DNA of 34,030 nt from a virus (taxonomy: Duplodnaviria; Caudoviricetes). Under the pieces are notes generated by a model that was given only the letters and a program-made list of their open reading frames with translations, was not told where the DNA came from and did not search any database. The translations under genes were made by a program, and so were the position numbers. Shown in pieces: positions 1-28,589 of this stretch. Every line of letters starts with the position of its first letter. The first letter of the stretch is position 1. Location of the stretch: IMG/VR virus record IMGVR_UViG_3300037458_000342, positions 1 through 34,030 of that record; one strand, given 5' to 3'.

Positions 1-37
1 GACACGAGTCAGACCCCCATTTAACCAGAGCGCCCCT
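1..37 (+). repeat. Probable last unit of a TIGR-like dual-repeat array, truncated by the window edge
   Basis: g|acacgagtc (9)|AGACCCCCA (11-19)|tttaaccag (9)|AGCGCCCCT (29-37). Same two repeat types and 9-nt spacing as the array at 25732-26136, but only one unit is visible. Confidence 0.7.
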
Positions 38-47
38 CCTCGGGCTC

Positions 48-1022
48 ATGGACGCCGCTACCATCAAGAGGTTCTTGCGAGCTGTGAACGCGCGTAACGT
101 CACCGTTAGCGGTGGTTGGGTGCAGGCCGCGTGCCCGCTCGCACCGTGGCGGCACAAGTCTGGGCGGGACTCGCATCCGTCGTTCGCCGTGAAGGTGGAG
201 CCGGAGGCCGAAAGCCCCTACAACTGCTTCAGTTGCGGGGGCGGGCCTGACCTGCTGACGTTGGTACAAGCGTTGGCAGCCCACGGCGCGACGGCACCGC
301 GCTATGACCTGAAGACCGCTGTCGCCTTGGCGGTCGAGGACGGGGATCGGCCGATTCGATTCACCGTGAAGGAGTGGGGCGCGGAGGCGGATGCCGAGGA
401 GTACGTGACGCTTCCAGAGCCGTGGTTGGCCACGTTCATGCCCGCGGCGCAGTCGCCGCGTGCCATGCGTTACCTGAAGAGCCGGGACGTACCTGACTCT
501 GTGATCACGTTTCTGGACCTGAGGTACGACACGGAAAAGGATGCCGTCTGTTTCCCGATCCGTGACGCCGAGGGTGTCCTGTGCGCGCTTCGCGGTAGAC
601 GCCTACGCCCGAAGGGCGACGCCCCGAAGTACCACGTGTACGGCGACGCCAAGGGCAGGCGCAACACGGCCGTCTGGTACGGCGAGGCGTGGCTGGACTT
701 CGACAAGCCCGTGCTGATGGTCGAGTCTGTCTTCGACGTTGCGTCGGCTTTACGCGTGTACCGCAATGTGTGCGCGCCGATGACGGCTGGGTTCTCCGAG
801 CGTCGCGCGGCACGCCTGAAGCAAGCCATCGAAGTCGTCACCGTGTTCGACGCTGATCCCGCAGGGGACAAGGCCCGGGCGCGCGCTTCCCAGCGATTGC
901 CGGGCGCCCGCGTTACTCACCTGTACCCGCCGGCCGGGCACAAGGATGTCGGCGACATGTCGGTGGCCGATCTTCGCGAGCTGTTGTCTGGCAAGTTACG
1001 ACTCACAAAGGAGTGGCGATGA
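48..1022 (+). CDS. DNA primase (N-terminal Zn-binding domain plus Toprim domain)
   Basis: CPLAPWRH...YNCFSC zinc motif; YLKSR; FPIRD; Toprim motifs VESVFD and FDADPAG; KDVGDM. Confidence 0.88.
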   Translation: MDAATIKRFLRAVNARNVTVSGGWVQAACPLAPWRHKSGRDSHPSFAVKVEPEAESPYNCFSCGGGPDLLTLVQALAAHGATAPRYDLKTAVALAVEDGDRPIRFTVKEWGAEADAEEYVTLPEPWLATFMPAAQSPRAMRYLKSRDVPDSVITFLDLRYDTEKDAVCFPIRDAEGVLCALRGRRLRPKGDAPKYHVYGDAKGRRNTAVWYGEAWLDFDKPVLMVESVFDVASALRVYRNVCAPMTAGFSERRAARLKQAIEVVTVFDADPAGDKARARASQRLPGARVTHLYPPAGHKDVGDMSVADLRELLSGKLRLTKEWR

Positions 1023-1888
1023 GCGACATCCGCACGCTGGTGCGTAGTACCTACGACTTGCAGGCCCTGAGGATCCAGATGGGGAACAGGATCGCGGCGC
1101 AGTTCAAGGCCAAGCTCGGGCAGGCTCCGGGTACGACCGAGGACACGCTGTCGCCGGACGCGCAGGAGGTGCTGAAGGTCCTGCGGCTGTCGTATACGCG
1201 AATCACCGACGGCGTTGTCTCCGACGCGCGGTTGAGCCGCCTGAAGTTCGAAGGCGACGGGGTCATCGACACACCGACGGAGCTGGCCCTCGTTGCCCAG
1301 TACATCGAGCTGGACACCGCGGAGAAGCGCCAGTTCAGGCGGTTCGAGGACCTGCTGCTGAATTACCCGATCTACACGGAGTTTCTCGCCGGCGTGCGAG
1401 GCTGCGGCCCGGCCATGTCTGGCGTGATCCTGTCGGAGATCGACATCCACAAAGCCCGTTACCCGTCGTCGATATGGCAATACGCCGGCCTTGACGTGAA
1501 GTCCGACGGACGCGGCGCGTCGCGTCGCGCGGAACACTTGATCGACCGCGCCTATGTCGCGAGCGACGGCGAGGTGAAGACGCGCAAGTCGATCACCTTC
1601 AACCCGTTCCTGAAGACGAAGCTGGTGGGCGTGCTGGCTCCGTCCTTCGTGAAGCAAGGGGACGCGTCGCCTTATCGCAAGGTGTACGACGACTACAAGA
1701 ACCGGTTGGCGAACCACCCGAATTGGCAGGAGCGCACGAAAGGGCACCGGCATGCAGCGGCGATGCGGTACATGATCAAGATGTTCCTCGTCGACCTGTA
1801 TCGCGAGTGGCGCACGTTGGAGGGCCTGCCCGTGGCGCCGACCTATCAGGAGGCCAAGCTGGGGCACAGCCACGGTGAGGCCACGTAG
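1019..1888 (+). CDS. tasA: Nop-domain / IS110-related RNA-binding protein with no nuclease domain; TasA-like TIGR-associated protein
   Basis: N-terminal coiled coil (YDLQALRIQMGNRI), then FLAGVRGCGPAMSGVILSEID...SSIWQYAGL and FNPFLKTKL...YRKVYDDYK...HRHAAAMRYMIKMFL, typical of the IS110 C-terminal/Nop fold. No DEDD RuvC domain. AAGGAG RBS and ATGA overlap with the primase stop. Matching dual-repeat arrays are present in the window. Confidence 0.8.
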   Translation: MSDIRTLVRSTYDLQALRIQMGNRIAAQFKAKLGQAPGTTEDTLSPDAQEVLKVLRLSYTRITDGVVSDARLSRLKFEGDGVIDTPTELALVAQYIELDTAEKRQFRRFEDLLLNYPIYTEFLAGVRGCGPAMSGVILSEIDIHKARYPSSIWQYAGLDVKSDGRGASRRAEHLIDRAYVASDGEVKTRKSITFNPFLKTKLVGVLAPSFVKQGDASPYRKVYDDYKNRLANHPNWQERTKGHRHAAAMRYMIKMFLVDLYREWRTLEGLPVAPTYQEAKLGHSHGEAT

Positions 1889-9700: not shown

Positions 9701-10291
9701 ATGGGGAAGAAAAAGAAGGTTCACGCGCTGGCCAAGTCCCCGGAGTTCCAGCCACAGGCCGGATCTCTGCGGTGGGAGGCCATCAAGGAGGACTATATCG
9801 CGCAGAACCTTACGAGGGCCAAGGGACAGCCAGCATTCAACCTGCGCAAGCTGGCGGAGGCGCATGGCGTCTCCTACCACTACGTGCGTCAAATCGCGGC
9901 CACGCAGAAGTGGAACAAGCAGCTCAAGGAGCGCATCGAGCAGCGCAAGCAGGAAGCCGTGGCCAATATTACCGGCGTGGCGTTGTTCGACGAGATCGAG
10001 ATCCGTACGCGGCAGGCGACGTACGCGCGGCTCGCGTCTTCGTTGGCCTACCAGAAGCTGTCTGAGATGACGAGGGAGGACATCAAGAAGCTGTCGGTGC
10101 GTGACGCCATCGAGCTGTTGCGGATTGGCTTGACGGAGGAGCGCGTGGCGCTCGGCATCAAGGATACGGGCGTGCCGCCGCCCGCGGCGGAGGAGCGGCA
10201 ACTCTCAGACCAGCAGGTGTTCGCCGTGGCGCGACGCGTTATCGAACTGAAGCGGGGGCAGGATGGCAGCTACGGCACAGAGCCCTCCTGA
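9701..10291 (+). CDS. Probable terminase small subunit
   Basis: WEAIKEDYI...LRKLAEAHGVSYHYVRQIA...KW HTH; directly upstream of and overlapping the large subunit. Confidence 0.7.
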   Translation: MGKKKKVHALAKSPEFQPQAGSLRWEAIKEDYIAQNLTRAKGQPAFNLRKLAEAHGVSYHYVRQIAATQKWNKQLKERIEQRKQEAVANITGVALFDEIEIRTRQATYARLASSLAYQKLSEMTREDIKKLSVRDAIELLRIGLTEERVALGIKDTGVPPPAAEERQLSDQQVFAVARRVIELKRGQDGSYGTEPS

Positions 10292-15337: not shown

Positions 15338-15351
15338 AGTAGCCGTACTAT
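15323..15351 (+). promoter_or_regulatory. sigma70-like promoter
   Basis: TTGACA-17 nt-TACTAT, then CAAGGAGGG RBS. Confidence 0.7.
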
Positions 15352-15377
15352 TGCCGTGGACGGACAAGGAGGGAATC

Positions 15378-17408
15378 GTGGCACTACCACTGGTTTACGC
15401 GTTCGGGGTTGGAACCGCCTCCGTCGAGCTGGTCGATAAGACGGTCGTCGGTGGGAAAGGCGCCAATCTCATCGAGATGGCGCGCATGGGGCTGCCTGTA
15501 CCGCCCGGGGTGATCATCCCGGCGCACGAGTGCATCAGCTTCCTCAAGCCGAAGCCTGAGTACGTGCGCATGCAGCAGGTCGGCGAGCTGGTCGACGCGG
15601 TGCTTGCGCACTTCGACAAGAACGTGGTCCCGACCCTCGGGTACATGCCGTTGCTGTCGGTACGTTCGGGGGCGCGGGTGTCCATGCCCGGCATGATGGA
15701 CACATTGCTCAACGTCGGGCTGCGCGCTGCCGTGGCGTCCGAGTGGGATGCCCGCATCGGCAAGGCGTGCCGCCGGGACTGCCAACACAGGCTCAACGAG
15801 ACGTACACCAAGCTCGTGGGGGCCCCGCTCCCCAGCCTGTTGCGGGCTCAGCTCATCGGCGCCGTGAGCGCCGTGTTCAAGTCGTGGAACAGCGAGCGCG
15901 CTATCGAGTACCGGAAGATGCACGGGTACCCGGAGGACTGGGGCACCGCAGTCACGGTGCAGGCCATGGTGTTCGGCAACATGAACACAGAGTCATGTTC
16001 CGGGGTGCTGTTCACGCGCGACCCGGCCACCGGAGAGAACTTCGTCGTTGGTGAGTTCCTGCCCGAGGCGCAGGGCGAAGACGTGGTGGCCGGAGTGCGC
16101 ACGCCGCAACCGCTCCACGAGATGGAGGAGTGGAACGCTGGGGTGCTCGAAGAGCTGCTCACGGTGAGCGCGCGGCTGGAGGAGCACTACAGGGATGCGC
16201 AGGACATCGAGTTCACGGTGCAGGACGGCAAGCTGTTCGTGCTCCAGACTCGTAACGCCAAGCGCACCGCGGCTGCGGCGTTCAAGATCGCGCATGACAT
16301 GGCGTGCGAGAAGCTGATCGACAAGGGCACGGCCGTGGGAAGGGTGACGGCCGAGCAGTACGCGACGCTGCTTCGCGCGCGGGTGGCCCCGGGGTTCAAG
16401 CAGGCCCCGACGATCACCGGGATCGCGGCGTCACCGGGGCTGGTGAGCGGGGTGGCGGTGTTCGATCCAACGCTGGTGGCGACGGTTCCGTCGGCCATCC
16501 TTGTGAGGACGGAGACGAGCCCGGAAGACTTCCCGGCCATGGTGAAGGCTGCGGGGATCCTCACCAGCACGGGCGGCATGACCAGTCACGCGGCGGTCGT
16601 GGCGCGCGGCATCAATAAGCCGGCGGTCGTGGGCGCCTCTGGGATGCTGGTGACCGCCAAGGGCGCAACCCTGTCGAGCGGCGGGGTAATGGCGCCCGGG
16701 GATCGCGTGACCATCGACGGCGCCACCGGGAATGTGTGGGTGAACGTCGAGGTGCCAATCGAGGGTGGGGCCGTGACCCCGGAGGCGGCCACGGTCGTGC
16801 GGTGGGCGGCACGACGCAGCTCGAAGCTGCCGGCCGTCGAAGTACGGGACGTCGGCGGTCTCCCTGACGCCGGTCACGTGTACCTGAACGTCTCGGCGCT
16901 GACGACGGCGATGCAGTTCAGGGCGCTGATCAAGGAGCTGGCGGCGCGTCCCGCGTTGCAGGGGGTGATCGGGTTTGTGCGCCCCTTGGTGCCCCTGAGC
17001 CCCGAAGACCGCACGTTCTTGGAGCTGCTCGCCGCAACGAATCAGACGGGCGGCGAGGATAGCCCGGGGTGGGGCAAGCTCTTCGGGGTGCTGACCAAGG
17101 CGGCGGGCTCGAAGAAGGTGCGGGCGCAGTGGGCGGTGCATGTGCCGCAGACGGCCACGGCCGAACAGGTCGGGGCTGCGACAGCCTCTGGCTGGCGACT
17201 CGTCCGGCCCGTGCGCACCATGGCCGAACTGCTGGAGGCCGATGGGCTCGTAGTGATCGACGCCGCGTTCCGCGAGCGCATGAGCACGCACGAGGGGGTC
17301 TCGCTGGAGACGCTCATGGCCACGCTGGGCAAGGCGGGGCGCCGCGTTGCCGAGTTCGGCGGCGCCGTGGCTGCTTCTGATTTTGTGGCGGAGGTACTTG
17401 GAAAGTGA
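15378..17408 (+). CDS. Pyruvate phosphate dikinase-like protein: ATP-grasp and phospho-His domains plus an unrelated C-terminal domain
   Basis: GGKGANL, SVRSGARVSMPGMMDT, AQGEDVVAGVRTP, DIEFTVQDGKLFVLQTR, GGMTSHAAVVARG; pyruvate-binding barrel motifs absent. Confidence 0.88.
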   Translation: MALPLVYAFGVGTASVELVDKTVVGGKGANLIEMARMGLPVPPGVIIPAHECISFLKPKPEYVRMQQVGELVDAVLAHFDKNVVPTLGYMPLLSVRSGARVSMPGMMDTLLNVGLRAAVASEWDARIGKACRRDCQHRLNETYTKLVGAPLPSLLRAQLIGAVSAVFKSWNSERAIEYRKMHGYPEDWGTAVTVQAMVFGNMNTESCSGVLFTRDPATGENFVVGEFLPEAQGEDVVAGVRTPQPLHEMEEWNAGVLEELLTVSARLEEHYRDAQDIEFTVQDGKLFVLQTRNAKRTAAAAFKIAHDMACEKLIDKGTAVGRVTAEQYATLLRARVAPGFKQAPTITGIAASPGLVSGVAVFDPTLVATVPSAILVRTETSPEDFPAMVKAAGILTSTGGMTSHAAVVARGINKPAVVGASGMLVTAKGATLSSGGVMAPGDRVTIDGATGNVWVNVEVPIEGGAVTPEAATVVRWAARRSSKLPAVEVRDVGGLPDAGHVYLNVSALTTAMQFRALIKELAARPALQGVIGFVRPLVPLSPEDRTFLELLAATNQTGGEDSPGWGKLFGVLTKAAGSKKVRAQWAVHVPQTATAEQVGAATASGWRLVRPVRTMAELLEADGLVVIDAAFRERMSTHEGVSLETLMATLGKAGRRVAEFGGAVAASDFVAEVLGK

Positions 17409-17444
17409 GCACGGCGATGCTAGGGTCGGCGCCCGTACACCATC

Positions 17445-17876
17445 GTGTACGGGGATCGGCTGTTGCAGGAACGAATACGCTGTCCGCGCTGCAACGGGTT
17501 GTCGTGGATGGAGTGGCACGACCCGGACCTCATCCAGCGCTGCCTGTGTGGCCTGCACCGTTACCTGTGTCGTCGAGTGGAAGGTCTGACGGTGATGACC
17601 GCGGCCGTGGCGCCTCAAGAGGCGCGACTGCCGGCGCGCGATACCAAGATCCACCGATGCCTGATGGCCGTGGTCGACGGGTGGCCGAGGAGCCTGTTGA
17701 CGCAGGACATCGCCACAGCGTCGAACCTGAGTGGCAAGGAGACCAGCGCGTTGTTGGCGGTGCTCGCAGCACGCGGGCTCGTGGAGCGCTTGGAAGAGCG
17801 GCGTGGCCTGATTGGTGGTTCTGTATGGGTTTTGACGCGCAGCACCGCACAGATGCTGCGCTTGGAAAAGGAGTGA
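17445..17876 (+). CDS. Zn-ribbon plus winged-HTH protein
   Basis: CPRC...CLCG; LTQDIATASNLSGKETSALLAVLAARGLVER. Confidence 0.65.
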   Translation: MYGDRLLQERIRCPRCNGLSWMEWHDPDLIQRCLCGLHRYLCRRVEGLTVMTAAVAPQEARLPARDTKIHRCLMAVVDGWPRSLLTQDIATASNLSGKETSALLAVLAARGLVERLEERRGLIGGSVWVLTRSTAQMLRLEKE

Positions 17877-17879
17877 CCG

Positions 17880-18164
17880 ATGGCGCTGATCCTGTCTGCC
17901 CGTGAGGGCGAGTCTGTCTACGTGGGTGACCGCAAGGTCACGGTCACGGAGATTTACCACGCGACCCACTTCAAGGTGTGCGTCGTCGACGAGTTCGTCG
18001 ACGCGGTGTTCACCATCCGCGCGAGCGAACGCACGGAGATCCTGCCTGACGTCTTCCTGTCGGCCGGGAATACCGGCAACGCGCATGCCGTGAAGCTCGT
18101 GTTCGAAGCTCCGTCGGACCGTGTGATCCTGCGCGAGCGCCTGTATCAGCGCGGGAGCCGCTGA
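17880..18164 (+). CDS. CsrA/RsmA-like RNA-binding protein with an internal insertion
   Basis: LILSAREGESVYVGDRKVTV and VKLVFEAPSDRVILRERLYQR match the two ends of CsrA. Confidence 0.7.
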   Translation: MALILSAREGESVYVGDRKVTVTEIYHATHFKVCVVDEFVDAVFTIRASERTEILPDVFLSAGNTGNAHAVKLVFEAPSDRVILRERLYQRGSR

Positions 18165-18475
18165 TGTTGACGTTCGAGGTGTCGTCCGTTGCCGTGCAGC
18201 AGGCGTATAACCTCGGGCTCGGCGACGACGCGGAAGCGTTGGTGGCTCTGCTTGCGCGGTTCGCGCGTGCCGCGGCCCTAGTCACGGATGACCGCGGCAC
18301 GCGGCGGTATGGCGGGTACGTGCTCGACGTGCGCGGGTGCCGCGTGCACAGCATCGCCAAGCTAGACCCGCGCGCCAGCGTGTGCCCGGATTGTCATGGG
18401 ACGCAACGGCATCGGATGTCGGACAACGGGAAGTGGGTGGAGGTCCCATGCCAAGCATGCACCACGGAAAAGTGA
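18164..18475 (+). CDS. Hypothetical protein with C-terminal zinc finger
   Basis: CPDCHG...PCQAC; TGATG overlap. Confidence 0.6.
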   Translation: MLTFEVSSVAVQQAYNLGLGDDAEALVALLARFARAAALVTDDRGTRRYGGYVLDVRGCRVHSIAKLDPRASVCPDCHGTQRHRMSDNGKWVEVPCQACTTEK

Positions 18476-19047
18476 AGACGCCGCGAGTTCGAGTGAACCG
18501 GTCACGAGCGGTTGGCCCGGAGCCTCATTGGGTCGCGTTGGCGTTCGCAGACCGCGCTGACTCCGGGCGTATCATTGCCGGGCCCTACAGTGCATGGGTG
18601 CGGCTCCCGCACCGTGGCGCCGGCGTTGTCCGGGTCAACATGGCGGGCGCCAAGCACGGTCCGGCGGAGTTCACGGTGGAGACGCCGGACTTCGGCGTAC
18701 CGCCGCGCGCCGCGTTCATGCGTGCCCTGCGTGCCGCCGCGGAAGCGCTGCTGGCCGGGCGCGACGTGTTCGTCGGTTGTGGGTATGGGTACGGGCGCAC
18801 GGGGACATTCTTGGCGGCCCTGTTCAAGCTGCACTTCGAGCTGCTGTGGGTGCTGCGCCGGACCTCCACATATCCGGAGGAGCGCCGTCCGGTCGAAGCC
18901 ATGCGCCTCGCGTACACCGAGCGAGCGGTCGAGACGAGCGAGCAGGAAGAGTTCGTGTGGGCGCTGAACGTGCGATGGCTCGCGCGCAGCTTGGCGGTGC
19001 GAGAAGACTGGCGCGTACTGTTTGACAAACGGTTCTGGATGCTCTAG
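18448..19047 (+). CDS. Cys-dependent (PTP/dual-specificity-like) phosphatase; start uncertain, 18448-18472
   Basis: PDFGVP acid loop, VGCGYGYGRTGTFLA (CX5R), AVETSEQEEFV. Confidence 0.8.
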   Translation: MPSMHHGKVKTPRVRVNRSRAVGPEPHWVALAFADRADSGRIIAGPYSAWVRLPHRGAGVVRVNMAGAKHGPAEFTVETPDFGVPPRAAFMRALRAAAEALLAGRDVFVGCGYGYGRTGTFLAALFKLHFELLWVLRRTSTYPEERRPVEAMRLAYTERAVETSEQEEFVWALNVRWLARSLAVREDWRVLFDKRFWML

Positions 19048-19077: not shown

Positions 19078-20091
19078 GTGGCGACACTGAGTCAACACCG
19101 TAGGCGACCGGTATTTCAGCCGCTGGACCTGCGCGACGTGCCCGTAGCGGCCGTAGTCGCCAAGTTCGAGCAGGCAAAGAATCATCTCGCGAGCCTGCCC
19201 AACGGGTCGGCCATGCGGCGCCCGGAGCACGAGGCCATCGCGTTTTACATGACTAACGCGTTCGTGGCTGAGGTGGGGCAGCGCGTGGATGCCGACGCGG
19301 ATCTTGGGCCCTACGAGCCGCTCGTCGAGGATTATCAGGCGGTGGTGCGCGCTGCCGCACTTCGCATGTTCAACTACCTGCTGCTGATATGCACGCGTGA
19401 ATCGCGGCACGTATACAACGATGCCGCGCTGTTCGACGCGCTCGACAGTCGCTACGGCTGTGCGGCCTTTACCAAGGCTCTTCGGTCGCTGGGGTCGTCG
19501 GGGTCAGTACAGCACCTGTTGAAGCACCCGCCGAAGGTGAAGCTGGGGGCGTACACGGATCATCTGGTGGCGGTGTTCAGCGAGGGCTCGTTCAACTCGC
19601 AGTACGGCGGGTCAGCGTGGGCGTCTATCGCCAGCGTCCTTCAACGGTTCGTGCACGGAGTGATCAGCCCGGAGCTGCTGCTCGATACCGGGTTCACGCT
19701 CGCGCACAACAACGGCCCGATTTTCAACAAGGAGATGCTGTACATGCCGTACGACTCGTACGAGCTGACCAGAATCCTCGATGTACAGCGCGCCGGCCAG
19801 ATCCCGCAGTTGGTGGACAGCAACATCAGTCTGATGATCAGTAACGAGCACCGCACGATGCACAAGCGGGCACGCGATCTCTTAGGGGATTCGGTGTGCG
19901 GTGCAGTCGACTGGCTACGGGTGGTCGAGCTTGGGGCCGTGCAGTCGTACGCCGTGGAAGTGGCCGCGCAAAAGCAGAGCACCCAGCACACGCAGCTCAA
20001 GGGATTCGTGAAGACGGTGTCCGGAGCGCCCTCCGTGGTGGCGATGGCGCATAACACGTACGCCATGACGACCCAGAGGAGCGCCGCATGA
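19078..20091 (+). CDS. Hypothetical helical protein
   Basis: Strong RBS; conserved-looking motifs ICTRESRH, YGGSAWASIA and LAHNNGPIFNK. Confidence 0.75.
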   Translation: MATLSQHRRRPVFQPLDLRDVPVAAVVAKFEQAKNHLASLPNGSAMRRPEHEAIAFYMTNAFVAEVGQRVDADADLGPYEPLVEDYQAVVRAAALRMFNYLLLICTRESRHVYNDAALFDALDSRYGCAAFTKALRSLGSSGSVQHLLKHPPKVKLGAYTDHLVAVFSEGSFNSQYGGSAWASIASVLQRFVHGVISPELLLDTGFTLAHNNGPIFNKEMLYMPYDSYELTRILDVQRAGQIPQLVDSNISLMISNEHRTMHKRARDLLGDSVCGAVDWLRVVELGAVQSYAVEVAAQKQSTQHTQLKGFVKTVSGAPSVVAMAHNTYAMTTQRSAA

Positions 20092-20795
20092 GCAAGCGCA
20101 AGCACAAGCACAAGAAGAAGCACGACGGCCGAGGCCCAACCAAGCCGCCGGTGATGGCGCATCATTGGGGGCGTTGCTACGAGAAGCACAGCGCCTTAGC
20201 GCTCGGCAACGGAACCCTGTTGGGGGCGAGCTGCCTGCAACCGCGTGACGGGTTCGACGTCTACGTCGGGCTCGACGAGGGTATGGAGCGGAGGCACCTC
20301 GCCTTCCCGTGGCAGCCGGCGTCAAAGGTAGTGGAGGTCAAGTTCCCGATCCGGGACGGTGGAGTGCCAACGGACGTCGCTCAGTTCGAGCGCATGGTGC
20401 GCTGGCTGGTGGAGCGTCTCGGCGATGGGCAGCGCGTGCACATCGGGTGCATTGGCGGGCACGGGCGTACTGGAATGCTCATGGCCGCAATCGTGCGCGT
20501 TTTGCATGGGGATCTCGATGCCGGCAGGTGGGTCCGCGAAAATTACTGCAAAGAAGCCATCGAGACCAGTGCACAGGTGGAGTTTCTGAGACGTGAGTAC
20601 GGCATTACACCTGTCGAGTTGCGAAGCCGCTGGGCCTCGCCGCGCTCCCTGCTAGGGAAGCGCCACGAGCCGCTCGACTGGTTCGAGCCTCTGTACGACG
20701 ACGGCCTGTCGGGGATGGAGCCTCGTGAGCAGGTCTACTGTGCAGGGCATCGCGGGCTCGTGTGGCACCCGGCAGTGTGCGTGGAGAAGCTCTAG
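20088..20795 (+). CDS. Cys-dependent (PTP/dual-specificity-like) phosphatase
   Basis: FPIRDGGVP, HIGCIGGHGRTG (CX5R), AIETSAQVEFL. Confidence 0.85.
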   Translation: MSKRKHKHKKKHDGRGPTKPPVMAHHWGRCYEKHSALALGNGTLLGASCLQPRDGFDVYVGLDEGMERRHLAFPWQPASKVVEVKFPIRDGGVPTDVAQFERMVRWLVERLGDGQRVHIGCIGGHGRTGMLMAAIVRVLHGDLDAGRWVRENYCKEAIETSAQVEFLRREYGITPVELRSRWASPRSLLGKRHEPLDWFEPLYDDGLSGMEPREQVYCAGHRGLVWHPAVCVEKL

Positions 20796-22071: not shown

Positions 22072-22358
22072 GCATCGTCGACGACCTTCGCGCACGGCGC
22101 GCGGCTGCGGGTATTCGGGAACGCCCGGATGGCACGCCTCGCGTGGTGCAGCAGCTCGCGTATGACTTCGATCTGCACGCGTTCGTCGGGCTGCTGTTCG
22201 ACGATACCGTGATGTGGGTGGATGCGGCCGTCGTCGGCGTGGGCGTGTTCGTGCGCACCCCCGACATGGGGAGCTACTTCCGGGCGCAGGCGCACATGCA
22301 CACCGCCTACCTGCGCCGACACGCCGGTCTGGAGTTCGACGACGAGGGCGTGGCGTGA
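22068..22358 (+). CDS. Hypothetical protein
   Basis: ATGA overlap. Confidence 0.6.
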   Translation: MSIVDDLRARRAAAGIRERPDGTPRVVQQLAYDFDLHAFVGLLFDDTVMWVDAAVVGVGVFVRTPDMGSYFRAQAHMHTAYLRRHAGLEFDDEGVA

Positions 22359-24697
22359 AGTACACGGTGTGGTGTTCGTCGACGAGCGTGGGTGTGCTGG
22401 AGGAGATCCTCCCGGGCGTGTGTCTGCGGCCGGAGCCGGACATCGTGCCGGTGGCGGTGCGTCGCGCGTTTCCGCCGATCCCGGACGGGGCCCTGCTTCT
22501 CATGGGGACCCCCTTCCTGAAGGCCATGCAGGACATGAAGCTCGTGAAGCGCAACGCGTCGCTGACGTCGTGCCGCGAGACCGTGTTCGACCTCGACGGC
22601 ACCAAGGCACTGTTGACGTTCGACCCTACGCTGGTGCTTCGCGAACGCGAGCGCCTGACGGACGTGCTCTGGGACATGAATCTGTGTGCACGTCTGGCGC
22701 GGACGGGGTCGACGCGCCCGGAGATCGGCACCTACCGCTGGGTGGAGGACTTCAGCGACCTCGTCAAGCGGTTCCGAGGGCTGGAAGGCAAGCTGCCGCG
22801 GATCGCGCTGGATCTGGAGACCACGGGGCTCGATGCGTTTGCGCGAGACGCCAGAATCCTGACGGTGGCGCTGTCTGCTGCCGCAGGCGAGGCGTACGTC
22901 TACCGGGTGCCCCCCAATGGCCAGCCCTCGACGACGGTGCTCAAGCAGCTCCGTGCGCTGCTGTGTGGCCCGCGGGCCCGGGTGGTGGGAGCCAACCTCA
23001 AGTTCGACTTGGTGTGGCTGGCTGCCCACTGGGAGATCCGCGGCATCCGTCAAATCTTTGACACCCATCTCGTGGGCAGCCTGCTCGACGAGAACCGCAG
23101 CAATTCACTGGAGACCCACGCCAAGCTGTACACGGCGATGGGCGGGTACGACATGGAGTTCAACAGGGCCCACGACAAGGGCTCCATGGCCGAGGCCCTC
23201 GACGCTGATCCCGACGGATTCCTCACGTACGCGGGGGGCGATGTCGACGCCTGCCTGAGGGTGGCCACGGAACAGCGTCGGTTCGTGCGTCGCGACACCC
23301 GGCTCACGCGATTCTTCACCCGCCTGTTGCTGCCGGCGGCCAAGGTGTTCGCCAAGGTGGAGGAGCGTGGCATCGTCGTGGATGCAGCGCGCTACGCCGA
23401 GCTGGAAGCCCAGTGCCGCGCCGACGTGGCGGCCCTGACTGCCGAGGCCCTGAGCCACGTGCCGCGCCGCCTGCTCCTGAAGTACGCCGACAACCTGAGC
23501 CCGACGCGGCCCGCGCTGCTACGTGATTATCTGTTCACACGGCGGGGCCTCAACCTGACGCCGGAGCTGGTGACGCCGAAGGCACAGGCCGCGCTGGATC
23601 GCGGTGAGCCCGTGGACCTCGTGGCCAATGCGAGCACGGCCGCAGAGCACCTGCAACGGTTCTCCGACGTGCCGGAGGCCAAGCCGTTCGTGGAGGCCAT
23701 GGCCAAGCTGGGGGTCACCAACAAGATCCTCAGCACGTACATCGTGGGGTTCCGCCGCCATCTGCGGGACGACGGCAAGTTCCACCCGAGCTATCGCATG
23801 GGGCGCGGATCGAGTGCCGACGACGCCGAGGGGGGCACCGTGACGGGGAGATTGTCGGCTACCGACCCGGCCTACCAGACGCTGGTAAAGCGCGGTGTCT
23901 GGGCCAAGCCGCTGCGCTCCGTGTTCCCGTGCCCGTCGGGCTACGCCATCGTGAAGTTCGACTTCTCGCAGGGCGAGCTGCGGATCACGGCGGTGGTCGC
24001 GGATGACCCGGTCATGCTCGACGCGTACCGGCACGGCAAGGACATCCACGCCCTCACAGCCGCCAGCATGACGGGGGTCACGCTCGAACAATTCATGGCG
24101 ATGCCCGAGGAGGTCGTCGAGGAGCGCCGGCGCGCTGCCAAGGCCGTGAACTTCGGGTTCCTGTACGGCATGCAGGCGCCGGGGCTCGTGGATTACGCCC
24201 GAAAATCCTACGGGGTCCTCATGACCCTGCCGCAGGCGCAGAGTTACCGCGGGGCGTTCTTCGACACGTACGCCGCACTGGAGCCGTACCACGCCCGCAT
24301 CAAGGAGTACGCGCACAGACACCAGATGGTGCGCAATCCACTCGGTAGAATCAGGCACTTACCGCTGATTCGTAGTCCGTTTCGAGATGTCGTGAGCATG
24401 GCCGAGCGCCAAGCCATCAACTCGCCGATCCAATCGTGCCTCAGCGACATGATGCTGCTCGCCATGGTGGAGCTGGATCGACGCTGGCCGGACCTGTGGA
24501 TCTTCGGCATGACGCACGACAGCCTTGAGCTGTACGTCCCGCTCGATGACGTCGACGTCATGGTGCCCGCGATCAAGGACGTCATGGAGAACCTGCCGGT
24601 CGCGGACTTCGGGTGGACCCCGGGAATCCCCTTTGTGGTCGACGCCGAGGTGGCGACGGCCGGTACGTTGGCCGACGTGAAGAAGGTGAAAGCATGA
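22355..24697 (+). CDS. polA: Family A DNA polymerase with 3'-5' exonuclease
   Basis: DLETTGL, NLKFD, YAGGD exonuclease motifs; TVTGRLS, DFSQGELR, RRAAKAVNFGFLYG, AINSPIQS, HDSL. Confidence 0.95.
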   Translation: MKYTVWCSSTSVGVLEEILPGVCLRPEPDIVPVAVRRAFPPIPDGALLLMGTPFLKAMQDMKLVKRNASLTSCRETVFDLDGTKALLTFDPTLVLRERERLTDVLWDMNLCARLARTGSTRPEIGTYRWVEDFSDLVKRFRGLEGKLPRIALDLETTGLDAFARDARILTVALSAAAGEAYVYRVPPNGQPSTTVLKQLRALLCGPRARVVGANLKFDLVWLAAHWEIRGIRQIFDTHLVGSLLDENRSNSLETHAKLYTAMGGYDMEFNRAHDKGSMAEALDADPDGFLTYAGGDVDACLRVATEQRRFVRRDTRLTRFFTRLLLPAAKVFAKVEERGIVVDAARYAELEAQCRADVAALTAEALSHVPRRLLLKYADNLSPTRPALLRDYLFTRRGLNLTPELVTPKAQAALDRGEPVDLVANASTAAEHLQRFSDVPEAKPFVEAMAKLGVTNKILSTYIVGFRRHLRDDGKFHPSYRMGRGSSADDAEGGTVTGRLSATDPAYQTLVKRGVWAKPLRSVFPCPSGYAIVKFDFSQGELRITAVVADDPVMLDAYRHGKDIHALTAASMTGVTLEQFMAMPEEVVEERRRAAKAVNFGFLYGMQAPGLVDYARKSYGVLMTLPQAQSYRGAFFDTYAALEPYHARIKEYAHRHQMVRNPLGRIRHLPLIRSPFRDVVSMAERQAINSPIQSCLSDMMLLAMVELDRRWPDLWIFGMTHDSLELYVPLDDVDVMVPAIKDVMENLPVADFGWTPGIPFVVDAEVATAGTLADVKKVKA

Positions 24698-24993
24698 GGA
24701 AGCGTGGCGAGAAGCGCGTGCCCACTGCGACGAGTGAAGTGCGTGCACGGGTTCCCAAGGATGTCGCGGCTGCCCTGAGTCGCGTGGCTCGGCTGTCCGG
24801 GTGCACGGAGGGGCAGGTAGCGGCTGTCATGGTGGCGTCGTACGTCGACGCGGCAGCACACGCTGCGCAAGCCAAGGGGCTGTTGGTCCCGGTCGACGCC
24901 GCGGCCCGCGCACTTGATAAGCTGCTGCGCACCCCGAACGCCGTGGACGTCATCCGCCGCCGGCAGGCGCAGCGCGCCCGGAGCGAAGGGTGA
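24694..24993 (+). CDS. Small ribbon-helix-helix-like protein
   Basis: SEVRARVPKDVAAALSRVARLSGCTEGQV; ATGA overlap. Confidence 0.55.
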   Translation: MRKRGEKRVPTATSEVRARVPKDVAAALSRVARLSGCTEGQVAAVMVASYVDAAAHAAQAKGLLVPVDAAARALDKLLRTPNAVDVIRRRQAQRARSEG

Positions 24994-25289
24994 GTGGCCA
25001 GCGGATTGAATACCCGAACCACCTGCCGGCCGTGCTGCCGGCGAAGTGGCGGCGCGATCCGTATTACCGGGACCTTGTCGTCGTGCACGAGCCCCCGGTG
25101 GGCGTGACCGTGGAGATCCGCGGCCTGTGCTGCACGGTGGAGTTCACGGGCGAGCGCGCCCGGGCGTTCCCCTACACGCCGGAGGAGGCCGCCGCCATGG
25201 TGGTCGAGCGCTTGCTCGTGGATGTCCAGACGGACCTGCGCCCGCTGCTACTGGCACGCCTCACCGCGGCTTTGCGCCACGTGAGGTGA
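24990..25289 (+). CDS. Hypothetical protein
   Basis: GTGA overlap; coding-like codon usage. Confidence 0.6.
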   Translation: MSGQRIEYPNHLPAVLPAKWRRDPYYRDLVVVHEPPVGVTVEIRGLCCTVEFTGERARAFPYTPEEAAAMVVERLLVDVQTDLRPLLLARLTAALRHVR

Positions 25290-25353
25290 ACACAGAATCA
25301 TGCGTAGCCGCTGCCCGCATACCAGAGACCTGTTCAACCCAGAGGAGATGACG

Positions 25354-25734
25354 ATGACGGAAGCCAAGACGGCGCCCGATGGCGCACCGACGGAAGACAC
25401 GACCCCCGAGACCACGACCCCGGCGAAGCGCCGGCGCACCGTGCCGGACGATGTCGCGCTGCTGAGCAAGCCCGGGCCGAAGCCGCGGTTGCCGACGGCG
25501 CGCGAGCGGCACCCCCTGACGACGTCTGCCATGCGCACGTTCAAGCTCGTGCGTACGCAAGACGAGACCGGGATCAGCGGCACCGGGGTGGTCGCCGAAG
25601 GCGTGGAGTTCAGCAACGGCTGGTGCGCGATGAGCTGGCTGACGGCCATGCACTCCGTGGCCGTGTACCCCAACGTGCGTGCCGTCGAGGCCATTCACGG
25701 GCACAACGGGCGCACGCGCGTCGTGTTCGACTGA
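25354..25734 (+). CDS. Conserved phage-type hypothetical protein
   Basis: GAGGAG RBS; DETGISGTGVVAEGVEFSNG...IHGHNGRTRV domain. Confidence 0.7.
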   Translation: MTEAKTAPDGAPTEDTTPETTTPAKRRRTVPDDVALLSKPGPKPRLPTARERHPLTTSAMRTFKLVRTQDETGISGTGVVAEGVEFSNGWCAMSWLTAMHSVAVYPNVRAVEAIHGHNGRTRVVFD

Positions 25735-26136
25735 GGCCCGAAAAGGCCAGCCACCCGCAGCACCGCAGCGCGCCACGATCTTCGCATACACCCATGTCGT
25801 TCTAGCGCGCCGAACACCCGCAGATACCCAGTGAGACAATGCGCGCCAAAATCCACAGTCACCCAGCCCAAGGAGCGCGTCAATGTCGGGAAGCCCACCG
25901 TCGCCATAAAGCGTGCCGATTGTCCCGAGACCCCCGAAAAAGGCGAGGCGCGTCATAGCCGGGCTAGATCACCGAAAGAGCAAGGCGAGCCTTAGTTCAC
26001 TAGCCACCCACGCAACTTCAGCGCGCCAAAGCATAGGAGCCCACCAGTGAAACGAAGCGCGGCGTACCTGAAGAGGCCCCCTGTGAGTGCAATCGCGTCG
26101 AAACCCACAAGCCCTCCACAGCGATGAAGCGCGTCG
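25732..26136 (+). repeat. TIGR-like (tandem interspaced guide RNA) dual-repeat array, 11 units, ~36-nt period
   Basis: Edge repeats (consensus AGCGCGCCA) at 25767, 25804, 25840, 25874, 25910, 25947, 25984, 26020, 26056, 26092, 26128 alternate with loop repeats (consensus AGCCACCCA) at 25749, 25786, 25822, 25857, 25892, 25928, 25966, 26002, 26038, 26074, 26110. All are separated by unique 8-10 nt (mostly 9 nt) spacers. Confidence 0.9.
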
Positions 26137-26378
26137 TTACGATACGTGTTCAAAGGCCGGACAAACCCGGGGGACCGCCGCCACGCGGCTCACGTACAAA
26201 TCCGGTGCCCGTGGCGGGGAAGCGTGGCGTCGAAGCGGGTCGTTCTGTCTAGGCCCGCAGCGGCGTGCACGCCATGCTGCGTGGGGCCAGTTCACCGAAT
26301 CGGTGCTCATGGCCCCGCCTTCATGCTGGCCGTTGGATGCCCTACACTCGGCCGCGGCGCTACCTGAGGGGTTTGCTC

Positions 26379-28589
26379 ATGCCCATTTCCAGAAAGACAC
26401 GCGAGCGCGTCGGACTCCCGCCGAAGGCTACGGAAGCCGAAGTGCAGGAGGCGTTAGCCGCCGCGCTCGGGGTGCAGTCGTCGGCGATGATCGTCGAAGA
26501 CCGCACGACGCTTTCGAAGGCGGAGGAGGAGCTGTTGCAGTCCAAGGCCCTGACGGTCGAGGACGATCCGTGGAATCAGCTCCCGAACGAGCGACGCACC
26601 AACCTCATCCGGCCCACGTACAACCCCGTGCAGCTCGCCACACTATGCGTGCAGAACAACACGCTCGCGCAGTGCCTTGACGCCTTCGAGGTGAACATCG
26701 ACGGCACTGGGTTCGAGGTAGAGCGCAAGGACAACGACACGGCGAGTGAGGAAGAGGAGGACGACAACATCGAGCCCCTCAAGGAGATGTTCCACTCGAT
26801 CAACGTCAGCGAATCGTTCACGTCGGTGCGTCGCAAGGTGCGTCGCGACCGTCACACGTACGGCAATGGCTACATGGAGGTGCTCCGCAACGAGGCCGGC
26901 GAGATCACGCTGGTCAACCACATCGACGCCAAGCTCGTGTACATGGTGAAGCTCGACGACCCTGTCGAGGTGGAGCGCACGATCAAGCGCGGTGGCAAGG
27001 AGCAGAAGGTGCGCATGCTCGTGCGCGAGCGGCGCTACGCGATGATGATCGGCAACAAGGTGCGATACTTCCGCGAGTTCGGCAGCTCGCGCGAAATCGA
27101 CGCCGACACGGGTGAGTGGATGGGGCCGGCACGGGCGACTCCGGACGCCCTGTTCAAGGGCAAGCCCATGGACCCGAAGTTCAAGGCCACCGGCGATCAG
27201 GACAAGTTGCCACCAGAGCCCGGCACGCCCGGCGCGCGGGCGCCGACGGCCGCAACGCCTGCGGATGGCGCGCGCACCGACAAGCCCGTGGCGGAGATGA
27301 CGCCGGAAGAGCGCCGCAAGCGCATGGCTGTGGCCAAGGCCACCGAGCCGAAGCCCGTGGTGGCGACGCCGCCGCAAGCGGGGGACGATCCGACCCGGCA
27401 AGTGGGAGCGACTCCGAAGTCGGCGGGCGCGCGCGGCACGGAGATCATCCACTTCAAGGATCGCCCCGATATTTCGACCCCGTACGGCGTGCCGGTGTGG
27501 ATCAATCAGGTGCCATCGGTGCTTGGCAGCCGCAAGGCCGAGGAGCTGAACCTCGAATACTTCAATCACGGTGGCATGCCGCCGGTCATGATTTTCGTGC
27601 AGGGCGGCCAGCTCTCGCAGCAATCCAAGGATCTGCTGAACACGTACCTGTCGGGGGCGGCTAAGACCAAGCTGCGCGCGGTCGTGGCCGACGTGTACTC
27701 GACGGGAGGCGACCTGACGTCGACGTCACAAGTGAAGGTGAACGTGGAGCGATTCGGCGGAGACCAGCGACAGGACTCCATGTTCGAGGGGTACGATGAG
27801 CGTTGTTCAGCGCGGGTGCGCGGAGCTTTCCGTCTGCCCCCGCTATTCACCGGGGACACCGGGGATTACACGTTCGCCACGGCGTACGCGAGCTACGTGG
27901 TCGCCGAAGCGCAGGTGTTCAAGCCGGAGCGCGAGTTGTTCGACGAGGTCGTGAACAACACGCTCATGCGCGAGTTGGCGCCCGACTACGTGTTCCGCAG
28001 CCTGCCCCTGACCGTGGTCGACGTCGCCGTGAAGCTGCAAGCCCTCGGGCTCGTCAAGGACATCACGGACACCAAGACGTTCGTCGACGAGGTCAACGAG
28101 ATCGGCGGGCTCAACCTCACGTTCAAGGAACCCGCGGATCCCATGGGAGGCTTCGGCATGCCGGGGGCGGGCGATCCGTTTGCGCCGGCCGGAGAAGATG
28201 AGGAGCCCGGCGCGCCCGGCGGATTCCCACCTGCCAAGGGGGCGTTTCCTCCGGGCAACCCCGTGGGCGTGCCCAAGGTACCGACGCCGAAGCCAACCAA
28301 GCCGTTGCCCTCGAACTTCGCGAAGGCGAATCGCGAGCGCATCGCGAAGATGGGTGACGACGTGTTCACGCAGCTTGCGGACGACTGGGCGGCGCACCTT
28401 GCCGGGGACAAGCAGTTCGACGCGGGCGCCGTGAACTTCATGAAGTCGTGCATCGACGCGTTCCACCCCCAGATGCGCAAGCTGTTCAACGCGTACGTGG
28501 GCATGCGCCTCGCGCCGGGCGCCAAGTACGACCCGGACGGCGTCGCCGACCTGATGGCTTGCGCGGGAGACGCTTTGTGCCGTCACTGA
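26379..28589 (+). CDS. Portal protein (PBSX-like) with low-complexity insertions
   Basis: TYGNGYMEVLRN, EIIHFK...PYGVPVW, YFNHGGMP, AFRLPPLFTG...ATA. Confidence 0.85.
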   Translation: MPISRKTRERVGLPPKATEAEVQEALAAALGVQSSAMIVEDRTTLSKAEEELLQSKALTVEDDPWNQLPNERRTNLIRPTYNPVQLATLCVQNNTLAQCLDAFEVNIDGTGFEVERKDNDTASEEEEDDNIEPLKEMFHSINVSESFTSVRRKVRRDRHTYGNGYMEVLRNEAGEITLVNHIDAKLVYMVKLDDPVEVERTIKRGGKEQKVRMLVRERRYAMMIGNKVRYFREFGSSREIDADTGEWMGPARATPDALFKGKPMDPKFKATGDQDKLPPEPGTPGARAPTAATPADGARTDKPVAEMTPEERRKRMAVAKATEPKPVVATPPQAGDDPTRQVGATPKSAGARGTEIIHFKDRPDISTPYGVPVWINQVPSVLGSRKAEELNLEYFNHGGMPPVMIFVQGGQLSQQSKDLLNTYLSGAAKTKLRAVVADVYSTGGDLTSTSQVKVNVERFGGDQRQDSMFEGYDERCSARVRGAFRLPPLFTGDTGDYTFATAYASYVVAEAQVFKPERELFDEVVNNTLMRELAPDYVFRSLPLTVVDVAVKLQALGLVKDITDTKTFVDEVNEIGGLNLTFKEPADPMGGFGMPGAGDPFAPAGEDEEPGAPGGFPPAKGAFPPGNPVGVPKVPTPKPTKPLPSNFAKANRERIAKMGDDVFTQLADDWAAHLAGDKQFDAGAVNFMKSCIDAFHPQMRKLFNAYVGMRLAPGAKYDPDGVADLMACAGDALCRH

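What the first reader, a model, noticed from the sequence alone, without database searches (positions are those of the whole stretch)
25732..26136. Cryptic 36-nt dual-repeat guide-RNA array (TIGR-type) between the polymerase operon and the portal gene
Seen: the non-coding gap parses into 11 units of [edge repeat ~AGCGCGCCA][spacer A][loop repeat ~AGCCACCCA][spacer B]; the first edge repeat (TGAGGCCCG, 25732) is degenerate. Spacer pairs A/B: aaaaggcc/cagcaccgc, cgatcttcgc/tgtcgttct, aacacccgc/gtgagacaa, aaatccac/gcccaagg, atgtcggga/tcgccataa, attgtcccg/aaaaaggcga, tagccgggct/aaagagcaa, tagttcact/cgcaacttc, aagcatagg/gtgaaacga, tacctgaag/gtgagtgca, aaacccaca/cagcgatga. Both repeats usually begin AG and end CCA/CCG, so each spacer is bracketed CCR...AG. 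Established: TIGR-Tas systems use two alternating short repeats with ~9-nt spacers, processed into ~36-nt guides with box C/D-like motifs that are bound by Nop-domain proteins and target DNA through both spacers on opposite strands without a PAM. Inference: this is such an array. Its repeats are too short and degenerate for CRISPR finders, and AG appears to replace the UG motif I recall from described arrays.
Basis: partly seen in the sequence, partly recalled or inferred. Interest (0 to 1): 0.95.

Follow-up and report, generated by a model that had tools for sequence, protein, structure and literature searches.

The report
Satellite TIGR guide array in phage
This phage carries an 11-unit array built like the guide-RNA arrays of the TIGR-Tas system described in 2025, but 24 kb from the only matching Tas gene in the contig, so it likely supplies extra DNA-binding guides from a distance; its targets are unknown, and one related strain appears to have two more units in mid-array.

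Summary
Confirmed. 25732-26136 is a non-coding array of 11 units of 34-37 nt with alternating edge and loop repeats, exactly as parsed. ORF 1019-1888 is a nuclease-less TasA: best PDB matches are TasH and TasR, it keeps the Y/H processing dyad, and a 73%-identical homolog is in the published Tas table. The AG motif is not new: the characterised SpTIGR and FpTIGR arrays have it. What is unusual is the position. The array lies 23.8 kb from tasA, beyond the 5-10 kb flanks stated in published surveys. The tail of a second array sits at 1-34, where relatives keep theirs. The satellite array persists nearly unchanged in runs of three other studies; one allele has 109 nt in place of 37, i.e. two more units (inferred). 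Other phages have remote and tas-less arrays. No target was found; expression is untested. This scan has noted satellite and orphan TIGR arrays on other DNA before. New variant of a known system.

The parts
25732..26136 (+). [quoted passage not shown]
25732..25740 (+). Degenerate first edge repeat; its first three bases are the stop codon of ORF 25300-25734
26020..26061 (+). Unit 9 region: replaced by a stretch 72 nt longer in the major allele of run X14; both break points fall in edge repeats (inferred from contig coordinates)
   Evidence: tables 5, 7, 8
26128..26136 (+). Terminal edge repeat, full length
1019..1888 (+). tasA: 289-aa Nop-domain protein without a nuclease domain; Tyr276/His283 align with the SpTasH processing dyad Y289/H296
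1..34 (+). 3' tail of a second, tas-proximal TIGR array cut by the contig end: loop repeat 11-19, 9-nt spacer 20-28, truncated edge 29-34
   Evidence: rank 2 of 68,000 sites; array-like letters continue upstream in runs X4 and X14; full arrays here in relatives
48..1022 (+). DNA primase gene between the proximal array and tasA, overlapping the tasA start
25300..25734 (+). Last ORF of the polymerase gene run (phrog_7499, unknown function); the array likely rides on its transcript
22214..24697 (+). Family A DNA polymerase ORF (context; true start not fixed)
26137..26378 (+). GC-rich, moderately structured stretch between array and portal; no consensus terminator or promoter
   Evidence: (z -1.9)
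26379..28589 (+). Portal protein gene (context)

Best explanation
This is a dual-repeat TIGR guide array lying 23.8 kb from the phage's tasA gene, likely transcribed with the polymerase genes, predicted to be cut inside the edge repeats into about eleven 36-nt guides by that TasA, which would then bind 18-bp DNA sites without cutting them and likely block their transcription. Shown by sequence: the array anatomy, a TasA with a Nop fold and Y/H dyad and no nuclease, a second array of the same repeat type beside the primase-tasA genes, and persistence of the satellite array in related strains. Inferred: read-through transcription (the first repeat overlaps the upstream stop codon and no promoter consensus was found); processing by this TasA at a distance; dual-strand PAM-free binding (spacer A on one strand, spacer B on the other); repression as the outcome. 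The targets most likely lie outside the phage, in a host or co-infecting element that changes slowly, because the spacers are stable across strains and have no good match in the 34 kb held.
For: Anatomy and statistics. Edge repeats have the extra internal pair in 11 of 12, loops in 1 of 11, the rule TIGRFinder uses to tell them apart. The box D G faces C or U of box C in 10 of 12 edges and 10 of 11 loops. Protein: phmmer to TasH E 3e-12 and TasR E 1.6e-10, the only 2 PDB hits; model pLDDT 82.8, the ten best Foldseek hits all TasH/TasR, E 4e-10 to 6e-8, IS621 2e-3. The dyad Tyr is invariant in 52 aligned sequences; SpTasH processes its own array with Y289/H296 (PMC13421893). Relatives with 73-74% identical TasA carry arrays of the same repeat type just upstream of the primase, and the window has the tail of one there, so this TasA reads these repeats. 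The array is held by contigs of runs X4, X5, X14 (three studies) with fewer changes than the ORF next to it: X5 1 in 201 nt against 21 in a 302-nt piece lying mostly over the ORF; X4 2 in 305 against 5 in 265. Remote arrays with a tas in the same record occur elsewhere: G003 18 kb, G109/G025 about 14 kb, G061 11 kb, G097 9 kb. A TasA repressed a reporter and bound DNA in bioRxiv 2026.09.09.750476.
Against: No RNA evidence. The record is about 37% complete, so a second tas could lie in the missing part, at least 7.9 kb downstream; 2 of the 47 records (G019, G056) hold two tas genes. Repeats are more degenerate than in SpTIGR; unit 1 has a poor first edge, and 5 of 11 units are not 9+9. No consensus terminator follows the array. 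No target found: none within 1 mismatch in the own 34 kb, exact sites for units 5, 8, 10 absent from IMG/VR (0, 0, 0), unit 5 has 14 scattered hits in GTDB, about the 17 expected by chance. The repression data are for a stem-loop TasA; for a dual-repeat TasA I saw only guide binding (FpTasA). Low divergence in the array could also reflect recent recombination between strains.
Confidence: 0.72

Rival explanations
1. The array is a functional TIGR array but is served by another Tas, encoded in the missing 63% of the genome or by a co-infecting phage.
For: Record 37% complete. Two tas genes occur in G019 and G056. Complete genomes G001 and G004 hold arrays and no tas by an unfiltered HMM search, so arrays can exist without their own protein.
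Against: The tasA at 1019-1888 sits behind an array tail of the same repeat type, and its closest relatives use the same repeats. No tas in the 7.9 kb downstream.
Confidence: 0.1
2. The array is a relic, left when a neighbouring tas gene was lost or when the array was moved, and no longer gives working guides.
For: Degenerate repeats (0.67-0.69 pairwise identity), 5 of 11 units off the 9+9 norm, degenerate first edge, no promoter or terminator consensus, no target found.
Against: Fewer changes than the neighbouring ORF in strains X4 and X5; two listed changes (26098, 26134) turn a G-U box pair into G-C; the length change in X14 is exactly two units. No tas fragment near the array.
Confidence: 0.1
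3. The guides act on the phage's own genome (timing of early and late genes, replication or packaging) rather than on foreign DNA.
For: Stable spacers; tasA sits inside the replication operon; the array sits at the replication/structural boundary. Unit 4 matches 25594-25610 in the upstream ORF at 14 of 16 positions with a 1-nt gap. Most of the genome is missing.
Against: That match is reached by 62 of 1500 shuffled guides, and by any of 11 shuffled guides in 14 of 150 trials; within 1 kb of the array by 6 of 1500, a post-hoc test. A change at 25599 in X4 and X14 adds a third mismatch. The other 10 guides have at least 4 mismatches. Across 654 guides of other phages there is no excess of self-matches over a control geometry.
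Confidence: 0.06
4. The repeats are not TIGR: chance, a coding repeat, a CRISPR array or protein-binding iterons.
For: Repeats are short and loose; standard finders miss them.
Against: 0 of 2000 shuffles; 0 arrays in 1.42 Mb of shuffled loci; stops in all frames; two alternating repeat types; 93 of 114 records found by the motif encode Tas; edge repeat within one base of SpTIGR's.
Confidence: 0.02

Closest known systems
SpTIGR-TasH of Salicola phage CGphi29 (Faure et al. 2025, PMC12045711; PDB 21kl, 9w03; PMC13421893)
   Same: Phage-borne dual-repeat array, 36-nt units, AG...CCA repeats with an edge repeat one base from this array's consensus; Nop domain and Y/H dyad align.
   Different: SpTasH has an HNH nuclease and its array follows the gene directly; its repeats are more uniform. 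Here there is no nuclease and the array is 23.8 kb away.
FpTIGR-TasA of Flavonifractor plautii (PMC12045711)
   Same: Solo Nop-domain TasA with a dual-repeat array, 9+9 spacers, AG...CC repeats; binds 36-nt RNAs.
   Different: Array adjacent to the gene. Here one array is separated from tasA by the primase gene and a second is remote.
TasA as RNA-guided repressor (MbTasA, bioRxiv 10.64898/2026.09.09.750476)
   Same: Nuclease-less Tas predicted to bind DNA and block transcription.
   Different: MbTasA uses stem-loop guides; stem-loop Tas lack the Y/H dyad that this protein has.
CRISPR arrays, including phage mini-arrays used in trans (recalled, no call)
   Same: Array of guides that can lie apart from the effector gene.
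   Different: One repeat of 25-36 nt and one spacer per guide; here two 9-nt repeats and two 9-nt spacers.
IS110/IS621 bridge-RNA recombinases and box C/D snoRNPs
   Same: Nop fold (Foldseek E 2e-3 and weaker); PHROG labels the family 'transposase'.
   Different: No DEDD/RuvC domain in the 289-aa protein; guides are in arrays.

Membership tests
Dual-repeat TIGR array | Two alternating 8-12-nt repeats with about 9-nt spacers, about 36-nt unit, mostly 5-15 units | tested here: met
   11 units of 34-37 nt; 15 of 22 spacers 9 nt; definition
Dual-repeat TIGR array | Box D and box C motifs shared by edge and loop repeats, with the box C/D pair | tested here: met
   AG start in 7 of 12 edges and 10 of 11 loops; G with C or U in 10 of 12 and 10 of 11; same AG form in SpTIGR and FpTIGR
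Dual-repeat TIGR array | Edge repeat has an extra internal base pair, loop repeat does not | tested here: met
   11 of 12 edges against 1 of 11 loops (rule)
Dual-repeat TIGR array | Typically truncated first and last edge repeats and a terminator behind | tested here: inconclusive
   First edge degenerate, last edge full; no consensus terminator; the paper says 'typically'
Canonical TIGR-Tas locus | Array adjacent to the tas gene | tested here: not met
   23.8 kb from tasA, none in the 7.9 kb downstream. Met only by the array tail at 1-34. Hence filed as a variant, not as a canonical locus.
Tas protein family | Coiled coil plus Nop domain related to TasH/TasR | tested here: met
   a 73%-identical homolog is listed in Table S1 of PMC12045711
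TasA | No HNH or RuvC domain | tested here: met
   289 aa, model begins with the coiled-coil helix, no Pfam nuclease hit
Dual-repeat Tas clade | C-terminal Y/H processing dyad | tested here: met
   Tyr276/His283 align with SpTasH Y289/H296; Tyr invariant in 52 sequences
TIGR-Tas | Array transcribed and processed into 36-nt RNAs bound by Tas | not testable with these tools
   No raw RNA reads were laid
TIGR-Tas | Tandem-spacer, PAM-free binding of a DNA target | tested here: inconclusive
   No convincing natural target; binding itself needs a bench test
CRISPR array | One direct repeat of 25-36 nt with spacers of like size | tested here: not met
   Two 9-nt repeats; no Rfam match
IS110 recombinase | N-terminal DEDD domain and a single bridge RNA | tested here: not met
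   No such domain in the model; Tas structures score far better

The most novel reading that the evidence does not exclude
TIGR arrays are free-standing guide cassettes that spread through phage genomes apart from tas and are loaded at a distance, and they change by swapping whole guide units at edge repeats in mid-array. The two co-existing alleles of this array (11 and 13 units) would be a natural snapshot of TIGR guide gain, and reading the new units would point at the source of spacers and at what TasA targets.
Probability: 0.35. Interest if true: 0.8.

Novelty: new variant of a known kind. Interest (0 to 1): 0.52.

Why it matters
Two stated open questions for TIGR-Tas are how arrays gain spacers and what they target. 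Published surveys start from tas genes: Faure et al. took 5 kb on each side; the TIGRFinder preprint annotates arrays around tas loci and the only flank I saw stated is up to 10 kb, median 5.4 kb recovered. A full-length array 24 kb away falls outside these, so guide repertoires are likely undercounted. This phage has many strain-level relatives in public runs, with an array that is stable in sequence yet differs by whole units. That makes it a practical population in which to watch guide gain and loss. The system itself is known and the biochemistry is predicted to be ordinary TasA.

Tried and rejected
AG box D as a novelty: rejected. Self-targets: none within 1 mismatch in the 34 kb; the unit 4 match is compatible with chance. 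Targets in 2.17 Mb of fetched loci for 1,278 distinct parsed guides (those of 18 nt or more were searched; the parser caught only 4 of the window's 11 units): 0 exact, 14 at one mismatch, against 23, 14 and 15 for three control geometries. Self-targeting across 654 guides: no excess. Exact sites for 3 of 11 guides in IMG/VR: none; 1 of 11 in GTDB: 14 scattered hits, chance level. Shared units with other arrays: best case 4 mismatches. Array beside the portal in more distant relatives: none in 47 IMG/VR portal loci or in the DLP5 and RcZahn stretches; several of those loci hold little upstream DNA, and the closest portal relatives (60-66%) were not among them. Portal and polymerase as single queries found no IMG/VR relatives; the five tas-bearing records tested hold no portal match. 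Host not found: no tas match in plasmids. G041 was dropped as an orphan because it has one isolated motif match and no array. Paper searches for 'TIGR array'+'orphan' gave 0; 'tigRNA'+'in trans' and 'spacer acquisition' gave only the founding paper and reviews, seen as listings.

Full report
Observation. [quoted passage not shown] Lag-36 autocorrelation is 0.418 against 0.299 +/- 0.016, with 0 of 2000 shuffles reaching it; after removing codon periodicity it is the strongest such signal in the window. Repeats are 0.67-0.69 alike pairwise and spacers 0.27. All six frames carry stops. TRF and Rfam miss it.

Setting. The window is a whole linear virus record, about 37% complete. It runs primase, the 1019-1888 gene, SSB-like gene, helicase, RecA, resolvases, later a family A polymerase, small ORFs, the array and the portal. 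Portal and polymerase are 40-47% like those of Stenotrophomonas phage DLP5, Rhodobacter phage RcZahn and Rhizobium phages, in which polymerase and portal are adjacent or nearly so. No array or tas was found in those two stretches or in 47 more distant portal loci, so the array looks like an insertion of this lineage. The host is unknown.

The protein. ORF 1019-1888 has no Pfam hit. Its only two PDB sequence matches are TasH (E 3e-12) and TasR (E 1.6e-10). The AlphaFold model (pLDDT 82.8) starts with the coiled coil and has TasH/TasR as its ten best Foldseek hits, ahead of IS621 and Nop5. Tyr276 and His283 align with SpTasH Y289/H296, reported as the residues that process the precursor, and the Tyr is invariant in 52 aligned sequences. 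The protein of the nearest IMG/VR relative (L001, 73% identical) is in Table S1 of Faure et al.. It is a TasA of the dual-repeat clade.

The array is TIGR-type. The 139 loci listed lie on 114 records, and 93 of the 114 encode a Tas homolog; 27 of 32 among records at least 90% complete. In the loci fetched with long flanks the gene is mostly within 1 kb of the array. A chain finder gave 0 arrays in 1.42 Mb of shuffled loci. The AG start is not special: SpTIGR has edge AGCGAGCCA and loop AGACAACCA, and FpTIGR also has AG...CC repeats; Faure et al. note that the motifs diverge together.

Two arrays. No array touches tasA in the window, but relatives with 73-74% identical TasA (L001/L170, the same sequence over the stretch shown, and L169) carry arrays of roughly 7 and 17 units (counted by eye) of the same repeat type just upstream of the primase. 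The window begins with loop repeat, 9-nt spacer and truncated edge at 11-34; a profile trained on relatives ranks that site 2 of 68,000. Contigs of X2, X4 and X14 run on 0.6-1.2 kb beyond position 1, and the 30 and 14 letters shown for X4 and X14 are array-like. So the phage has a usual proximal array, cut by the contig end, and the finding is a second array 23.8 kb from tasA. A second tas in the unassembled part cannot be excluded; none lies in the 7.9 kb downstream.

Remote arrays recur. G003, a complete 62-kb genome, has tas at 34.4-35.4 kb, an adjacent array of 50 repeats and another of 76 repeats 18 kb away. G061 (11 kb), G097 (9 kb) and G109/G025 (about 14 kb, identical over the stretch compared, apparently within an ORF) are further cases. 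G001 and G004, complete by terminal repeats, have arrays of 22 and 7 repeats and no tas by an unfiltered HMM search. G088 and G118 (94%, 93%) have short arrays and no tas by the tool's search only. Earlier notes of this scan describe like cases; they are not independent evidence.

Strains. Contigs of runs X4, X5 and X14 (three studies, labelled wastewater or activated sludge; X2 may be the source and is not counted) hold the array in place. Changes are fewer in the array than in the ORF before it: X5 1 in 201 nt against 21 in 302; X4 2 in 305 against 5 in 265; X14 2 in the array and 4 in the ORF within one 432-nt piece. Fifteen rows of differences were not shown, and two X14 contigs over units 6-8 differ at 5 and 1 places. 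Of the listed changes, two fall in spacers (25837, 26109); two turn a G-U box pair into G-C (26098, 26134). In X14 a 310-nt contig at depth 39 matches 26061-26222 with its letters 149-310 and, by a 39-letter side, up to 26023; no loose end is listed there and the neighbouring contig ends 30 letters into that side. I infer that 109 nt replace 37 nt, a gain of 72 nt or two units, with both break points in edge repeats. A window-like allele is present at depth 12. The inserted letters were not shown, so this rests on coordinates, and gain in X14 cannot be told from loss in the window's lineage.

How it likely works. The first repeat overlaps the stop codon of ORF 25300-25734 and no sigma-70 promoter consensus lies in 24700-26500, so read-through from the polymerase genes is the simplest source of precursor (inference). 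By analogy with SpTasH the TasA dimer would cut in mid-edge, giving 36-nt guides; the half-edge construct in Table S3 suggests the cut follows the fourth edge base (my reading of a plasmid sequence). Each guide would pair spacer A with one strand and spacer B with the other over 18 bp with no PAM. Without a nuclease the result would be a roadblock, as shown for a stem-loop TasA. Targets: none convincing in the own 34 kb, in 2.17 Mb of fetched loci, in IMG/VR for three guides or in GTDB for one. Stable spacers fit a slowly changing target such as host DNA better than a fast arms race, but this is inference.

Comparison and verdict. It works like, and by anatomy is, a dual-repeat TIGR-TasA system; it fails only the adjacency of array and gene, so I file it as a variant. 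I found no paper describing remote or orphan TIGR arrays. What I saw: PMC12045711 parts 1-4 of 12, found passages, and searches of Tables S1 (cut when stored) and S3; its supplementary PDF with fig. S4 could not be read and may show remote arrays. bioRxiv 2026.09.09.750476 parts 1 and 3-6 of 7 and passages; its dual-repeat motif list and search window are missing from the held text and its supplements are closed. PMC13421893 and bioRxiv 2026.08.11.744272 as passages. Yang et al. 2026 only as cited. Interest 0.52: a real, well-supported member of a young and topical system, with an unusual position and a lead on guide turnover, but no target and no new chemistry.

Noticed in passing
window 1-34: Tail of a second TIGR array upstream of the primase gene, cut by the contig end; public contigs extend 0.6-1.2 kb further.
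   Followed up: partly
L001 8730-8775 and L169 140-190: Conserved leader in front of the tas-proximal arrays with two interleaved complementary stems (H-type pseudoknot-like), one stem with a change on both sides; read by eye from two sequences only.
   Followed up: partly
G001:C1:41199-41621 (L035) and G004:C1:37771-37887 (L051): TIGR arrays in genomes complete by terminal repeats with no tas gene by an unfiltered HMM search.
   Followed up: partly
G003:C1:53598-54954: 38-unit satellite array 18 kb from tas, larger than the tas-adjacent array; tas has an in-frame insertion of about 200 nt.
   Followed up: partly
L073 9950-10150 (G109; same stretch in G025): Short TIGR array apparently embedded in a protein-coding gene about 14 kb from tas; frame not checked.
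   Followed up: no
G008 (L003), 132.8 kb: TasA 50% identical to the window's, with no array found by either finder in the whole record, 71% complete.
   Followed up: partly
L206 3500-4850 (Ralstonia phage RSL1, AB366653.2): A cultured phage has a TasA homolog (38%) followed by an unannotated 1.4-kb degenerate dual-repeat array, seen by eye; RSL1 names were not found in the held, cut copy of Table S1.
   Followed up: partly
window 25594-25610 (- strand): 14-of-16 match with a 1-nt gap to guide 4, 120 nt upstream of the array; probably chance.
   Followed up: yes
L034 2159 and L041 8698: One guide of L034 matches the tas gene of another phage (L041) at 17 of 18 positions, a single hit within the chance background.
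   Followed up: no
window 10263-12983: 906-aa ORF with an intein and HNH endonuclease, behind a terminase-small-subunit-like gene.
   Followed up: no
window 15351-18164: Phage-borne pyruvate phosphate dikinase-like gene and a CsrA-like gene.
   Followed up: no
window 18337-19047 and 20088-20795: Two DSP-PTPase-like ORFs (weak Pfam hits) flanking a gene of unknown function.
   Followed up: no
window 26379-28589: Portal has a long insertion of about 100-150 aa (roughly residues 250-350) absent from cultured relatives, which match in two pieces; an HNH gene follows.
   Followed up: no
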